NCBI RefSeq assembly: GCF_013315695.1
Contig: NZ_CP054353.1
Direction: 5' to 3' (one strand)
Length of the DNA stretch: 64,000 bases
From: Escherichia coli
Lineage (GTDB): Bacteria; Pseudomonadota; Gammaproteobacteria; Enterobacterales; Enterobacteriaceae
Under the pieces are notes generated by a model. The model saw only the letters and a list, made by a program, of their open reading frames with translations, had not been told where the DNA came from and did no database searches. Below, piece by piece: positions 32,003-35,286 of the stretch (positions are counted from its first letter, which is position 1; every line of letters starts with the position of its first letter). The translations under genes and the position numbers were made by a program.

Positions 32003-32281
32003 TTATTTTGTCATCTGCACGTATTTTTCTGCGCTCCTGATTGTTTTCAGGAAAAGAGCGAAGAGATTTACTGTGCGTCTTGAGTTCTTTTCATCCTGGT
32101 TGATGGGAATTGAACCTCTGTCAGCCTGTCTTTTCACTGTGTTAACAGCTTGGTTAGTACGCTTTGCGTAATCTTTCAGGCTTTCTTCAAGTACTGGTAA
32201 CCCATGCTCATCGCGGTAGGGATAGAACGCTGCTAAACGCTCAAAGTCTGCCTGTTCGTGTGTGTTCAGGACTTTTGCCAT
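32003..32281 (-). CDS. cox: Cox/Apl-like early regulator (first gene of early operon)
   Basis: Divergent from repressor C; internal segment YAKRTNQAVNTVKRQADRGSIP resembles the P2 Cox helix-turn-helix region. Confidence 0.5.
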   Translation of the reverse strand: MAKVLNTHEQADFERLAAFYPYRDEHGLPVLEESLKDYAKRTNQAVNTVKRQADRGSIPINQDEKNSRRTVNLFALFLKTIRSAEKYVQMTK

Positions 32282-32377: not shown

Positions 32378-32686
32378 ATGCTTATCGGTGAAAAAATTAG
32401 AGTGATTCGTGAATCAGAGGATTTAACGCGCGAAGAATTTTGCGGCCTGATTGATGTGCCTATCGGCACTTTGCGTCGTTATGAAACGGGGCGGATTGAA
32501 AACATAGGGGGCGAAGTGCTTATCAAGATTGTTAATCACCCTCGCTTTTTTAAGTACATGAATTGGCTTATGACGGGAAAAACAAATGAGGCTGCTGGGC
32601 AGATCAGTCCGTCTCTCTCCCCTGATGGGCCAAAAAGCACATCGCCTTCTCAAAAACCCCGCAAGACTGGCACACAGCCCGGCTAA
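32378..32686 (+). CDS. C: Immunity repressor C
   Basis: MLIGEKIRVIRESEDLTREEF...GTLRRYETGR...HPRFFKYMNWLMTGK resembles P2 C repressor. Confidence 0.7.
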   Translation: MLIGEKIRVIRESEDLTREEFCGLIDVPIGTLRRYETGRIENIGGEVLIKIVNHPRFFKYMNWLMTGKTNEAAGQISPSLSPDGPKSTSPSQKPRKTGTQPG

Positions 32687-32735: not shown

Positions 32736-33710
32736 ATGAGCATAAAATCAATTCCGGGAGGATATCTTCTTGACATGCGCCCGGAGGGGCGTAAAGGCAA
32801 ACGCATTCGTAAAAAATTTAAAACGAAATCGGATGCAGTTTTATATGAGCGGTGGGTGCTGGCGCAACAGCATAACAATGAGTGGAAAGGAAACTCCATT
32901 GATCGCCGTCCGCTGTCAGTGCTTATTGACTTGTGGTGGAAATACCACGGTCAGCTAATGAAGTCAGGGCATAACACGCGCCTTAAATTGCTGCGCTTGA
33001 GTGAGGCAATGGATGACCCGTGCGTGCATAAACTTAATACAACGATGCTCACCGAGCTACGTGTGTCCAGGATAGAGCAGGGGATACAGCCCAGCACCAT
33101 AAATCGAGAGATTGGGGCGTTAAGCGCGATGTTTACCGCACTCATCTCATCCGGCCATTTTCTTAACGATAACCCCGTTCAAGGCCTTAAAGGAATGAAG
33201 GTTAACGAGCGCGAAATGGGATATCTGAGTAAGTCTGAATGTGTTCAGTTGCTGGATGCACTGGCTGAAAATCCCGATGAACGGCTGGCTGTCGAAATCC
33301 TTCTGTCGACCGGGGCGCGATGGGGCGAGGTAGCGGCACTGGAGCAGCGCCGTGTTCTTCATTGTCGAATCACTTTTTCAAAAACGAAGAACAGCAAAAA
33401 CCGTACCGTTCCTATTTCTGAAAGCCTGTTTGAAAAGATCAAAAAACGGGGCGGGAAACTGGTGTTTCCGACGCTGGATTATCCATTGGTTCGCGATGTC
33501 ATCAAAACGGTCGCACCTGATGTTCCTGACGGCCAGGCTGTTCATGCGCTGCGCCACACCTTCGCCAGTCATTTCATGATGAACGGCGGCAATATTCTGA
33601 CGCTCCAGAAAATTCTGGGGCACGCAAAGATTCAGACAACGATGATTTATGCCCATCTTGCGCCGGATTACTTGCAGGATGCGGTGAGATTTAATCCTAT
33701 TGCTGGGTAA
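32736..33710 (+). CDS. int: Tyrosine integrase
   Basis: ...LSTGARWGEVAAL...HALRHTFASHFMMNGGNILTLQKILGHAKIQTTMIYAHLAPDYLQDAV closely resembles P2 Int. Confidence 0.9.
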   Translation: MSIKSIPGGYLLDMRPEGRKGKRIRKKFKTKSDAVLYERWVLAQQHNNEWKGNSIDRRPLSVLIDLWWKYHGQLMKSGHNTRLKLLRLSEAMDDPCVHKLNTTMLTELRVSRIEQGIQPSTINREIGALSAMFTALISSGHFLNDNPVQGLKGMKVNEREMGYLSKSECVQLLDALAENPDERLAVEILLSTGARWGEVAALEQRRVLHCRITFSKTKNSKNRTVPISESLFEKIKKRGGKLVFPTLDYPLVRDVIKTVAPDVPDGQAVHALRHTFASHFMMNGGNILTLQKILGHAKIQTTMIYAHLAPDYLQDAVRFNPIAG

Positions 33711-33720
33711 GGAGGATGTT

Positions 33721-34116
33721 GTGGAAAAAACAGTTAATAGCGATTTGCATTTAGGTCAGTACTGGAGAATAGACATTGTCTGCGATCCAGAACTTCGAGA
33801 TGAGGTTGAGCAATATTTTTCTCGACACGATGTTGGTTTTAGCAAAATTGAAGTTTTTTCCGTCGAAAATCCATATAAACTTGCTCTGTTCTTTGATTTC
33901 GCGAAGAAGGGTGTGGAGGTTGCAAAAGCCATTATGGGACTCTTAGACCGAAATGATATTGAAATAACGATGTATCGTGCTACGGACAGTAGCCCGCAGT
34001 CTGTAAAAAGCATCAAATTGCGTAAGTCTGAAGACGTAGAGAAATGTAAAGATTTGCTTAGTACGTGTGTCGCAATTGGCGTTCAACGAAATAAGGAAAA
34101 AGAGGGGAGCGAATGA
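33721..34116 (+). CDS. AT-rich cargo gene between int and the host junction, unknown function
   Basis: In-frame GTG 33721 five bp after AAGGAGGA RBS; 131-aa acidic protein; no family recognised. Confidence 0.55.
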   Translation: MEKTVNSDLHLGQYWRIDIVCDPELRDEVEQYFSRHDVGFSKIEVFSVENPYKLALFFDFAKKGVEVAKAIMGLLDRNDIEITMYRATDSSPQSVKSIKLRKSEDVEKCKDLLSTCVAIGVQRNKEKEGSE

Positions 34117-34178
34117 TCCACAAAGTGACCACATCCCTGTTATTTGTTGTGGTTGGCTGTGTTTTTGTGTGTCTGTAA
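34113..34178 (+). CDS. 21-aa hydrophobic peptide translationally coupled to the preceding gene
   Basis: ATG overlaps upstream stop in an ATGA arrangement; AGAGGGGAG RBS inside the upstream gene's last codons; MIHKVTTSLLFVVVGCVFVCL. Confidence 0.35.
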   Translation: MIHKVTTSLLFVVVGCVFVCL

Positions 34179-34230
34179 GTCTTTGATAATTATCTAACTT
34201 ATTGATTTTTGTTTGTGTTTATGGCCGCTC

Positions 34231-34258
34231 TGCGGCCTTTTTTCTTTTCACTGTCGAA
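34231..34258 (+). terminator. Rho-independent terminator
   Basis: GGCCGC-TCT-GCGGCC hairpin followed by TTTTTTCTTTT. Confidence 0.6.
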
Positions 34259-34305
34259 GAGTCACCGTAAAATCAACGCCATGACACTTCAGCAGAACGG
34301 ATACC

Positions 34306-35286
34306 ATGCTGACACTTGCCCGCCAACAACAGCGACAAAATATTCGCTGGTTATTATGCCTGTCAGTTTTGATGCTGCTGGCGCTTCTCTTAAGCCTTTG
34401 CGCCGGTGAACAATGGATCTCGCCAGGTGACTGGTTTACTCCTCGTGGCGAACTGTTCGTCTGGCAAATTCGCCTGCCACGTACGCTGGCTGTATTGCTG
34501 GTTGGTGCGGCGCTGGCTATATCCGGCGCTGTAATGCAGGCGTTGTTCGAAAATCCTCTGGCAGAACCTGGACTACTTGGCGTCTCTAACGGCGCAGGCG
34601 TGGGGCTTATCGCCGCGGTATTGCTTGGGCAAGGGCAACTCCCCAACTGGGCGCTGGGGCTGTGTGCGATTGCTGGCGCGCTTATCATCACTTTAATACT
34701 CTTACGTTTCGCCCGTCGTCATCTTTCGACCAGTCGGTTATTGCTGGCTGGCGTTGCATTAGGGATTATCTGTAGCGCACTAATGACGTGGGCTATCTAC
34801 TTTTCCACCTCTGTTGATTTACGTCAGCTGATGTACTGGATGATGGGCGGTTTTGGCGGCGTAGACTGGCGGCAAAGCTGGCTGATGCTGGCATTGATCC
34901 CCGTGTTGTTGTGGATCTGTTGTCAGTCCAGGCCAATGAATATGTTAGCACTTGGCGAGATCTCGGCGCGGCAACTGGGTTTACCCCTGTGGTTCTGGCG
35001 CAATGTGTTGGTGGCAGCGACCGGCTGGATGGTTGGCGTCAGTGTGGCGCTGGCGGGTGCTATCGGCTTTATTGGTCTGGTGATCCCACATATTCTCCGG
35101 CTGTGTGGTTTAACCGATCATCGCGTATTACTTCCCGGCTGCGCGTTGGCAGGGGCGAGCGCATTGCTGCTGGCCGATATTGTAGCGCGCCTGGCATTAG
35201 CTGCCGCAGAGCTGCCTATTGGCGTGGTCACCGCAACGTTGGGTGCGCCGGTGTTTATCTGGTTATTGTTAAAAGCAGGACGTTAG
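34306..35286 (+). CDS. btuC: Vitamin B12 ABC transporter permease
   Basis: [29 protein letters not shown]... recognised as E. coli BtuC. Confidence 0.95.

What the first reader, a model, noticed from the sequence alone, without database searches (positions are those of the whole stretch)
33721..34258. AT-rich two-gene moron between int and the host junction: 131-aa protein plus coupled 21-aa hydrophobic peptide
P2 has no gene between int and attP. Here an AT-rich 131-aa acidic protein starts 11 bp after int with a strong RBS, and its last codons carry the RBS for an overlapping (ATGA) 21-aa hydrophobic peptide MIHKVTTSLLFVVVGCVFVCL, followed by a strong terminator. A lysogen-expressed pair of soluble protein plus tiny membrane peptide is reminiscent of toxin/effector modules or exclusion systems. 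I recognise neither protein.
Basis: inference. Interest (0 to 1): 0.65.

Follow-up and report, generated by a model that had tools for sequence, protein, structure and literature searches.

The report
Prophage accessory gene beside attP arm
The 131-aa ORF is a real but uncharacterised accessory gene in a swappable slot at the end of a P2-like prophage, whereas the "21-aa membrane peptide" is most likely a chance reading frame across the integrase- and IHF-binding arm of the phage attachment site, and the "terminator" is the host ihfA terminator that serves as the integration core.

Summary

- **The 131-aa gene (33721-34116).** It is a genuine gene under purifying selection (dN/dS 0.19-0.32). 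It belongs to phrog_14142, an Enterobacterales-wide family of P2-like prophage proteins with no known function, domain or informative fold match.
- **The slot it occupies.** It lies between int and the attachment site. In 305 E. coli genomes with the same attachment arm, 158 carry this gene and the others carry at least three unrelated cassettes.
- **The 110 bp that follow (34113-34222).** They stay conserved whatever the cargo. I read them as the P arm of attP: two P2-type integrase arm repeats (codons 1-7 of the "peptide"), two IHF consensus sites (one contains the stop codon), then the 25-bp core (34223-34247). The core is the ihfA terminator.
- **The peptide frame.** It shows no coding selection (dN/dS 0.9-2.0). 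It is lost in one lineage and absent after distant homologues of the gene. The frame +2 nt downstream is just as open.
- **Function of the protein.** It is probably co-transcribed with C-int in lysogens, which is inferred, and its function is unknown. A role in phage-phage conflict is my best guess, at low confidence.

Overall this is an ordinary feature and a modest candidate for follow-up.

The parts
32378..32686 (+). C-type immunity repressor (HTH), first gene of the presumed lysogenic C-int operon (context)
   Evidence: Annotated as an HTH protein in the matching RefSeq locus. phrog_147 transcriptional regulator, E 3e-30.
32736..33710 (+). Tyrosine integrase, 324 aa (context)
   Evidence: phrog_1 integrase, E 4e-73. 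RefSeq 'tyrosine-type recombinase/integrase'.
33711..33715 (+). Shine-Dalgarno GGAGG, 5 nt before the GTG start. No promoter-like or terminator-like site between int and the gene.
   Evidence: Sequence. Promoter/terminator scan.
33721..34116 (+). 131-aa accessory gene, member of phrog_14142 (unknown function). Cargo of the variable int-att slot.
   Evidence: phrog_14142, E 1e-69, full length. dN/dS 0.19-0.32 against E. coli and Salmonella homologues. 68 clusters across Enterobacterales, all named hypothetical. AF2 model pLDDT 79, pTM 0.72. No Pfam, NCBIfam, PADLOC or PDB match.
34113..34178 (+). 21-codon open frame (MIHKVTTSLLFVVVGCVFVCL). Judged a by-product of the attP arm, not a gene.
   Evidence: dN/dS 0.9-2.0 for codons 8-21, with codons 1-7 invariant at the DNA level. 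Lost in lineage L006, which has AAG at the start and TAG at codon 10. Not in a collection of about 15 billion predicted proteins. Absent after distant homologues.
34113..34222 (.). P arm of attP (phage arm of attR), conserved independently of the upstream cargo
   Evidence: Present in 305 of 5426 E. coli genomes, of which only 158 carry the 131-aa gene. Alignments with alternative-cargo prophages start exactly at 34113.
34115..34133 (-). Two direct repeats of the P2-type Int arm-site motif, read on the minus strand as TGTGGTCA (34126-34133) and TGTGGATC (34115-34122), 11 bp apart
   Evidence: They match the published consensus tgTGGaCa in 7/8 and 6/8 positions (PMC3448106). The same pair with the same spacing lies in the P' arm of CB9615. 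A near-identical 18-mer lies in the P' arm of strain 23CRST011. Invariant in 5 arm lineages.
34176..34188 (-). IHF consensus site TATCAAAGACTTA. Its TTA is the complement of the 'peptide' stop codon TAA.
   Evidence: Exact match to WATCAANNNNTTR. TAAGT is invariant even in the lineage that has lost the ORF.
34195..34207 (-). IHF consensus site AATCAATAAGTTA
   Evidence: Exact consensus match. Consensus positions are largely kept while the NNNN positions vary among 5 lineages. A matching site lies 4-16 nt beyond the core in the P' arm.
34223..34247 (+). 25-bp att core GGCCGCTCTGCGGCCTTTTTTCTTT, which is the intrinsic terminator of host ihfA
   Evidence: Identical in attR (window), attL (L007) and the empty K-12 site. 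Flagged by the terminator scan. A 25-nt duplication is reported for the P2-like prophage between btuC and ihfA in strain SE11 (PMC2608844).
34306..35286 (+). Host btuC (context, marks the host side of the junction)
   Evidence: RefSeq annotation of the matching locus.

Best explanation
The finding covers the last ~530 bp of a P2-like prophage integrated between ihfA and btuC. It contains one gene and one recombination site, not two genes.

1. **The gene (33721-34116).** It encodes a 131-aa soluble alpha/beta protein of family phrog_14142. It occupies a swappable cargo slot between int and attP. It has a strong ribosome-binding site 5 nt upstream and no promoter or terminator between it and int. 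It is therefore most likely the last cistron of the lysogenic C-int transcript and made in lysogens. This step is inferred from P2 biology, not shown.

2. **The attP P arm (34113-34222).** It carries two P2-type Int arm repeats, a T/G-rich spacer and two IHF sites.

3. **The core (34223-34247).** It is the 25-bp ihfA terminator. Integration duplicates it, so it ends both the host ihfA transcript at attL and, probably, the phage C-int-cargo transcript at attR. The second role is inferred.

4. **The 21-codon frame.** It is what the arm repeats, the spacer and the IHF site spell when translated.

5. **Function of the protein.** This is not established. My best guess (about 0.35) is a standalone protein-binding factor used in phage-phage conflict, either exclusion/defence or counter-defence. 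The guess rests on what other P2 hotspots and the att-flanking slots carry.
For: Junction and core:
- Empty-site genomes match only from 34223 on.
- attL, attR and attB share exactly 25 bp. This agrees with PMC2608844.

Slot variability:
- The arm is present in 305 genomes.
- 158 carry the 131-aa gene.
- 86 carry a 120+145-aa pair.
- 39 carry a DUF1640 gene, 23 of them together with a 166-aa gene.
- At least one carries a 257+125-aa pair.
- A 2026 preprint lists int-att as a minor P2 defence hotspot.

Arm anatomy:
- Conservation begins exactly at 34113 regardless of cargo.
- TCCAC-N7-CCACAT occurs once in the window (P arm) and once in 20 kb around attL (P' arm), in the same orientation.
- The P' arm of 23CRST011 repeats ATGATCCACAAATTGACC.
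- The repeats match the published P2 arm consensus.
- Three exact IHF consensus sites flank the core. At the best-conserved of them (34195-34207) the consensus positions are largely kept across lineages while the N positions vary.

Real gene versus non-gene:
- dN/dS is 0.19-0.32 for the 131-aa gene.
- dN/dS is 0.9-2.0 for peptide codons 8-21.

Standalone gene:
- In 9 loci of distant homologues the gene ends in its own terminator with no coupled ORF.

Family context:
- The gene always lies next to att in P2-like prophages.
Against: - No binding, transcription or translation data exist here. Int and IHF sites are inferred from motifs and conservation.
- The arm-repeat pattern used was derived from the same two sites, so those counts show uniqueness and are not an independent test.
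- The P' arm comes from strains CB9615 and 23CRST011, because attL lies outside the window.
- The 21-codon frame, its ATG and its length are kept in four lineages, including two Salmonella ones at 27-33% nucleotide divergence, and it stays hydrophobic. Dual use of the arm is therefore not excluded.
- For the protein, no defence HMM, domain, solved-structure or viral-structure match supports any function.
- Every other cassette seen in this slot is also uncharacterised.
Confidence: 0.75

Rival explanations
1. One reading: a two-gene lysogen-expressed module in which the 131-aa protein is translationally coupled (ATGA) to a 21-aa membrane peptide, acting like a toxin/effector or exclusion pair.
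For: - The ATGA overlap and a purine-rich SD-like tract lie upstream.
- The ATG, the 21-codon length and a hydrophobic composition (GRAVY 1.1-2.1) are kept in all four lineages that carry a homologue of the 131-aa gene, including Salmonella.
- The alternative cargo genes in 2D and O103 also end in an overlap with this ATG (TGATG).
Against: - dN/dS is 0.9-2.0 and there is no third-position bias.
- F11 becomes E or Q in the Salmonella versions.
- Codons 1-7 are Int arm repeats that also occur in P' arms.
- The stop codon lies inside an IHF site and is conserved even where the ORF is lost.
- The ORF is lost in L006.
- The same ORF follows unrelated cargo genes, including ones with no SD-like tract.
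- Distant homologues of the 131-aa gene have no such ORF.
- The frame offset by +2 nt is equally open.
- No gene caller has ever predicted it.
Confidence: 0.07
2. The 131-aa protein is an accessory factor of site-specific recombination, such as a directionality factor or Int regulator, which would explain why it always sits beside attP.
For: - It is adjacent to att in every lineage examined, on the int side here and on the ogr side elsewhere.
- Here it starts 11 bp after int with no intervening promoter.
Against: - Prophages with the same integrase and a >=97% identical arm replace it with unrelated cassettes.
- The family travels with at least six different integration sites: ihfA/btuC, fabF, raiA, dsbB, mlaA and yccJ.
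- It shows no DNA-binding domain or fold.
- P2-type phages use Cox/Apl as the directionality factor, and a small gene occupies that position at 32003-32281 (established P2 biology).
Confidence: 0.06
3. The 131-aa protein is a lysogenic-conversion factor that changes host physiology or fitness, for example stress tolerance or colonisation, and has no role in phage-phage conflict.
For: - Its position implies expression in lysogens (inference).
- It is widespread in E. coli pathotypes and in Salmonella.
- It matches no defence model.
Against: - Nothing positive supports it: no signal peptide, transmembrane segment, enzyme motif or similarity to a virulence factor.
- The neighbouring att-flanking slots mostly hold toxin-antitoxin modules: Hok, HicAB and a PemK pair.
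Confidence: 0.2
4. The region is host DNA or a degraded island rather than part of the prophage.
For: The hairpin and everything from 34223 onward are indeed host sequence.
Against: - 33721-34222 is absent from about 5100 of 5426 E. coli genomes.
- It is found only downstream of this integrase at this site.
Confidence: 0.01

Closest known systems
P2 attP (heterobivalent tyrosine integrase site with arm repeats, IHF site and core)
   Same: - Direct arm repeats lie on both sides of the core and match the P2-type consensus tgTGGaCa (PMC3448106).
- IHF consensus sites lie between the arm repeats and the core.
- int lies next to attP and is read towards it.
- The core is identical to attB.
   Different: - The core and integration site differ: here the ihfA terminator, 25 bp.
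- A cargo gene is inserted between int and the P arm, which P2 lacks.
- No sequenced phage in the phage collection carries this int/arm module.
- Binding was not tested.
P2 lysogenic-conversion genes old, tin and Z/fun, and the P2/P4 defence hotspots (Rousset et al. 2022, PMC9122126; 2026 preprint 10.64898/2026.02.27.708500)
   Same: - It is a non-essential, lower-GC accessory gene in a slot whose content differs between otherwise syntenic P2-like prophages.
- The int-att interval is listed as a minor hotspot holding 3% of P2 systems.
   Different: - It shows no sequence or fold similarity to any known or candidate defence protein.
- No phenotype is known for it.
- It is a single small protein without an enzymatic motif.
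PHROG phrog_14142 (unknown function)
   Same: Full-length HMM match, E 1e-69. Distant homologues match the same family.
   Different: Nothing is different, since this is the family the protein belongs to. The family has no annotation.
Type I toxin peptides such as Hok/Gef, Ibs and Ldr (for the 21-aa frame)
   Same: A very short, strongly hydrophobic predicted peptide on a prophage edge.
   Different: - It has no conserved peptide sequence, no purifying selection and no dedicated locus.
- It overlaps protein-binding DNA motifs.
- A genuine Hok/Gef gene sits at the opposite end of the related prophage.

Membership tests
attP arm of a P2-type tyrosine integrase | At least two direct arm repeats on each side of the core matching tgTGGaCa | tested here: met
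   The P arm has TGTGGTCA (7/8) and TGTGGATC (6/8), 11 bp apart. The P' arm of CB9615 has a pair with the same spacing and orientation. Consensus taken from PMC3448106. The P' arm comes from related strains, not from the window.
attP arm of a P2-type tyrosine integrase | Core sequence identical in attL, attR and attB | tested here: met
   A 25-bp identical block. PMC2608844 reports a 25-nt duplication at this site.
attP arm of a P2-type tyrosine integrase | IHF site(s) between arm repeats and core | tested here: met
   Exact WATCAANNNNTTR matches at 34176-34188 and 34195-34207, plus one in the P' arm. At 34195-34207 the consensus bases are largely conserved while the N positions vary.
attP arm of a P2-type tyrosine integrase | Physical binding of Int and IHF, and a requirement for recombination | not testable with these tools
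   Needs EMSA or footprinting and recombination assays.
Prophage moron / hotspot cargo | Present or absent, or replaced, among otherwise syntenic prophages | tested here: met
   158 of the 305 genomes with the arm carry it. At least three other cassettes occupy the same slot.
Prophage moron / hotspot cargo | Base composition deviating from the surrounding phage genes | tested here: met
   40% GC, against 49% for int and 55% for the prophage.
Prophage moron / hotspot cargo | Own promoter and terminator (classical moron definition) | tested here: not met
   No promoter-like site lies between int and the gene. The only terminator is the att core. In other lineages the gene does have its own terminator.
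Prophage moron / hotspot cargo | Expression in the lysogen | not testable with these tools
   Inferred from its position as the last cistron after C-int. Needs RNA-seq.
Known or candidate anti-phage defence system (PADLOC) | HMM match to a defence protein model | tested here: not met
   No PADLOC match even at E<=10 for this protein or at E<=1 for four homologues.
Small hydrophobic toxin or membrane peptide gene | Peptide sequence conserved under purifying selection | tested here: not met
   dN/dS 0.9-2.0 for codons 8-21. Substitutions by codon position are 8/5/8, 7/4/6 and 4/7/5.
Small hydrophobic toxin or membrane peptide gene | ORF maintained in all related loci | tested here: not met
   Start and frame are lost in L006. 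It is absent downstream of distant homologues.
Small hydrophobic toxin or membrane peptide gene | Translation in vivo | not testable with these tools
   Needs Ribo-seq or tagging.
phrog_14142 | Full-length profile match | tested here: met
   E 1e-69, residues 1-128 against profile positions 1-128 of 128.

The most novel reading that the evidence does not exclude
The P arm of attP doubles as a coding sequence. Whichever cargo gene occupies the int-att slot would be translationally coupled to a 21-aa membrane peptide, whose first codons are the Int arm repeats and whose stop codon lies in an IHF site. The peptide would then be made from the lysogenic transcript and would be common to several different cargo cassettes. 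In support, the ATG, the frame length and the hydrophobicity persist in four lineages, and two unrelated cargo genes also end in an overlap with the ATG. Against it stand neutral-looking substitutions, loss in one lineage and an equally open alternative frame.
Probability: 0.05. Interest if true: 0.7.

Novelty: new member of a known kind. Interest (0 to 1): 0.3.

Why it matters
The practical value is mostly corrective. It shows how an attachment-site arm and a host terminator at a prophage edge can look like a coupled small-protein gene with its own terminator.

It also defines an integration module that is not represented among sequenced phages in the collection searched. The module comprises the ihfA-terminator core, the arm repeats and the IHF sites.

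It documents that the int-att interval of this lineage is a cassette-exchange slot with at least four alternative contents in E. coli.

The 131-aa family (phrog_14142) is widespread next to the att sites of P2-like prophages in Enterobacterales and is under purifying selection, yet nothing is known about it. That makes it a reasonable, low-cost candidate for defence or counter-defence screens. The zinc-ribbon plus tail-anchored DUF1640 pair that replaces it in about 100 genomes (86 with the 120+145-aa pair, 23 with the 166+145-aa pair) is a similar candidate.

Tried and rejected
- **Function by homology for the 131-aa protein.** All of these gave nothing usable.
  - No match: Pfam, NCBIfam, PADLOC, PDB sequences by phmmer and by profile and tblastn against 50,697 phage records.
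  - Foldseek against AFDB50: only uncharacterised 110-130-aa proteobacterial proteins.
  - Foldseek against BFVD: nothing at E<=0.001.
- **Collecting more divergent arms.** A genome-contig scan with GATCCACAAARTGRCCAC gave only chance hits in unrelated taxa. A metagenome scan with GATCCACAAAKTGACC gave 120 loci, of which only two were real, and both were identical to the window. The peptide test therefore rests on five arm lineages.
- **Searching for the module in sequenced phages.** Only the conserved 3' part of int matched, at 70-79% identity.
- **Literature.** There are no papers mentioning WP_000416306.
- **RNA-gene explanation for 34113-34222.** Rfam gave only a sub-threshold partial STnc540 hit, which belongs to the host intergenic region.
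- **Treating the window as strain CB9615.** I first did so because the 671-nt query is 100% identical. Coordinates elsewhere in the prophage do not transfer. CB9615 was therefore used only for the att ends.

Full report
**What is in the sequence.**
- int (324 aa, 32736-33710) ends with TAA. GGAGG follows at 33711-33715, and a GTG at 33721 opens a 131-codon ORF ending with TGA at 34116.
- RefSeq annotates the same ORF as hypothetical protein WP_000416306.1 in genomes that are 100% identical over 33650-34320.
- Salmonella homologues have ATG at the same position, which supports this start.
- The gene is 40% GC, against 49% for int and 55% for the prophage. The protein has pI 5.3.
- ATG 34113 overlaps the stop (ATGA) and opens the 21-codon frame MIHKVTTSLLFVVVGCVFVCL.
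- A GC hairpin plus T-run lies at 34223-34247.

**Where the phage ends.**
- A search of 5,426 complete E. coli genomes found 158 with the whole 671-nt query. Almost all others match only from query position 574, which is window 34223.
- The empty K-12 site reads ihfA-TAA-tctgatctaactaaaaa-GGCCGCTCTGCGGCCTTTTTTCTTT-tcactg...btuC.
- attL of a strain with an identical right end (O55:H7 CB9615) reads ...aaaaa-GGCCGCTCTGCGGCCTTTTTTCTTT-caataac....
- The att core is thus the 25-bp ihfA terminator, window 34223-34247. This agrees with the 25-nt duplication reported for the P2-like prophage 'between btuC and ihfA' of strain SE11 (PMC2608844).
- attL is outside the window.

**The int-att interval is a cassette slot.**
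- The 110 bp between the 131-aa gene and the core (34113-34222) occur in 305 genomes, always at this site. Only 158 of them carry the 131-aa gene.
- The alternative contents are:
  - a 145-aa DUF1640 protein alone (strain 2D);
  - a 166-aa plus DUF1640 pair (O103:H2 12009; 39 genomes, 23 of them with both genes);
  - a 120-aa plus 145-aa pair (AR_0128; 86 genomes);
  - a 257-aa plus 125-aa pair (23CRST011).
- Alignments show that similarity to the window begins exactly at 34113, whatever lies upstream.
- None of the cassettes seen here matches a known defence model. All fall in PHROGs of unknown function.

**What the conserved 110 bp are.**
- *The arm repeats.* The first 20 nt (ATGATCCACAAAGTGACCAC) are almost invariant across five arm lineages: window type, a 77%-identity E. 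coli variant, two Salmonella variants and 23CRST011. The only changes are at the ATG (AAG in 23CRST011) and two bases in the 77% variant. The next ~43 nt differ at up to half of their positions.
- On the minus strand this stretch reads TGTGGTCA and TGTGGATC, 11 bp apart. These match the published P2-type Int arm-site consensus tgTGGaCa in 7/8 and 6/8 positions. P2-like phages are described as having at least two such direct repeats on each side of the core (PMC3448106).
- The P' arm of CB9615 has the same arrangement (TCCACgatgcgTCCACAT) in the same orientation, about 40 nt beyond the core.
- The pattern TCCAC-N7-CCACAT occurs once in the 64-kb window and once in 20 kb around attL, both times in the arms. 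Shuffles expect 0.04 and 0.02. The pattern was derived from these two sites, so this shows uniqueness and is not an independent test.
- Independently, the P' arm of 23CRST011 contains ATGATCCACAAATTGACC. That is a near-exact copy of the P-arm motif, including the 'start codon'.
- *The IHF sites.* Exact matches to the IHF consensus WATCAANNNNTTR lie at 34176-34188 and 34195-34207 (minus strand), and 4-16 nt beyond the core in the P' arm.
- At 34195-34207 the consensus bases are largely kept across lineages while the four N positions vary.
- The TAA 'stop codon' of the peptide frame is the complement of the TTR part of the first IHF site. TAAGT is invariant even in the lineage that has lost the ORF.
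- I conclude that 34113-34222 is the P arm of attP. Binding itself was not tested.

**Is the 21-codon frame a gene?**
- *For.* The ATG, the 21-codon length and a hydrophobic composition persist in the four lineages that carry a homologue of the 131-aa gene. In 2D and O103 the unrelated upstream gene also ends in an overlap with the ATG.
- *Against.*
  - Nei-Gojobori dN/dS is 0.9-2.0 for codons 8-21 in E. coli-Salmonella comparisons.
  - Substitutions are spread 8/5/8, 7/4/6 and 4/7/5 over codon positions.
  - The central F becomes E or Q in Salmonella.
  - The frame is destroyed in 23CRST011, which has AAG instead of ATG and TAG at codon 10.
  - The frame offset by +2 nt is open over the same stretch in 4 of 5 lineages, as expected for T/G-rich DNA.
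  - The exact peptide is absent from a collection of about 15 billion predicted proteins.
  - In nine loci with distant homologues of the 131-aa gene, the gene is followed directly by its own hairpin terminator, with no coupled ORF.
- I rate a functional peptide at about 5-7%.

**The 131-aa gene.**
- It is clearly a real gene. dN/dS is 0.19-0.32 at dS 0.6-1.7 against E. coli and Salmonella homologues.
- It matches phrog_14142 (unknown function) over its full length.
- An exhaustive HMMER scan of 1.8 billion representatives found only 11 relatives. A profile search found 68 clusters across Salmonella, Citrobacter, Enterobacter, Klebsiella, Yersinia, Pectobacterium, Pantoea and others, all named hypothetical.
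- Conserved positions include H10, C21, the IMGLL-R-D-E motif (residues 71-81) and C109. A near-invariant Cys at position 45 is Val in the window's protein.
- The AF2 model (pLDDT 79, pTM 0.72) is beta-alpha-beta-beta-alpha-beta-beta-alpha-beta.
- No Pfam, NCBIfam, PADLOC or PDB-sequence match exists.

**Genomic behaviour of the family.**
- Close homologues (60-98% identity) always lie between int and btuC, as here, including in Salmonella.
- Distant homologues (about 30-40% identity) are the first gene inside the opposite, ogr-side end of P2-like prophages. The order is host gene (fabF, raiA, dsbB, mlaA or yccJ), then att, then the gene, then often hok on the other strand, then ogr and gpD.
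- In the CB9615 relative of the window's prophage, hok and ogr lie just beyond the att core on the other side.
- On the circular phage map the order int, gene, hok, ogr is therefore kept, and attP sits either after the gene (this lineage) or before it (the others).
- The gene is thus an att-proximal accessory gene of P2-like phages that travels with at least six different integration modules. Within this lineage it can be replaced. This argues against a role in recombination itself.

**How it most likely works.**
- *Shown.* The gene is intact, selected, non-core, and placed 11 bp after int with a strong SD and no intervening promoter-like or terminator-like site.
- *Inferred from P2 biology,* where int is transcribed with C from Pc. 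The gene is the last cistron of the lysogenic transcript. That transcript would then cross the P arm and stop at the core hairpin, which would insulate btuC.
- *Guess.* The protein is a small cytoplasmic binding module without catalytic motifs.
- The known P2 hotspots carry exclusion or defence genes (PMC9122126). The att-flanking slots here carry Hok, HicAB and a PemK pair. I therefore give about 0.35 to a role in phage-phage conflict (defence, exclusion or counter-defence).
- I give about 0.2 to another lysogenic-conversion role, about 0.06 to a recombination accessory role, and the rest to unknown.

**Verdict.**
- The feature is one uncharacterised accessory gene in a recognised, minor P2 hotspot, followed by the attP arm and the host terminator core.
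- It is a new member of a known kind and of modest interest. Its main value is as a screening candidate and as a worked example of an att arm that looks like a coupled small ORF.

Noticed in passing
window 23450-24256 (+): A 268-aa ORF between the portal gene and the ParM-like/replication-endonuclease genes (the classical P2 hotspot) matches the PADLOC candidate defence family PDC-M04A (E 2.6e-35). CB9615, which is identical at the att end, carries different genes at this place (a ClpX-type zinc-finger protein and a hypothetical protein). The window therefore comes from another strain, and this hotspot has been swapped independently.
   Followed up: partly
window 24491-25763 (-): A ParM-like actin-type segregation gene (weak NCBIfam ParM/PRTRC-D hits; annotated ParM in CB9615) and a small partition/stability gene sit inside an integrating P2-like prophage, next to the replication endonuclease.
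   Followed up: no
window 34182-34305; empty site L003 525-683: The ihfA 3' end to btuC intergenic region of prophage-free K-12 matches Rfam sRNA family STnc540 above threshold (67 bits). In the window only a sub-threshold remnant remains (22.5 bits), because the prophage is inserted at the terminator inside this locus and splits it between attL and attR.
   Followed up: partly
L007 15572-15712 (CB9615 attL side); L049 6852-7452; L053 4127-4737: The slot on the other side of att (att to ogr) is also variable and holds toxin-antitoxin modules: Hok/Gef in CB9615, HicA/HicB in 23CRST011, and a PemK toxin pair in a Yersinia prophage.
   Followed up: partly
L004 1689-2485; L005 1463-2501: The commonest alternative cargo is a two-gene cassette. 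It pairs a 120-166-aa protein (phrog_4293) that has paired Cys motifs suggestive of a zinc ribbon (by eye) with a 145-aa coiled-coil protein (DUF1640/CCDC90-like, phrog_9415) that has a C-terminal hydrophobic, tail-anchor-like stretch (by eye). It occurs in 86 genomes (120+145 aa) and 23 genomes (166+145 aa).
   Followed up: partly
L006 2137-2514: In strain 23CRST011 the 125-aa cargo CDS reads through the position of the 'peptide' ATG (here AAG) and stops at the TGA inside the Int arm repeats. A real coding sequence there overlaps the arm site by about 14 nt.
   Followed up: no
window 34245-34273 (+): A sigma-70-like promoter match (TTTTCA-17-TAAAAT, 9/12) starts inside the last bases of the att core and points at btuC. 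If this is the btuC promoter, integration leaves it intact but places it directly behind the phage transcript's terminator.
   Followed up: no
window 33853-33855 (codon 45 of the 131-aa gene): A Cys that is nearly invariant in the family (alignment position 45) is Val in the window's protein, and also in the cluster representative P0001. Three other conserved positions (H10, C21, C109) are kept. A four-ligand metal site is therefore unlikely to be essential.
   Followed up: no
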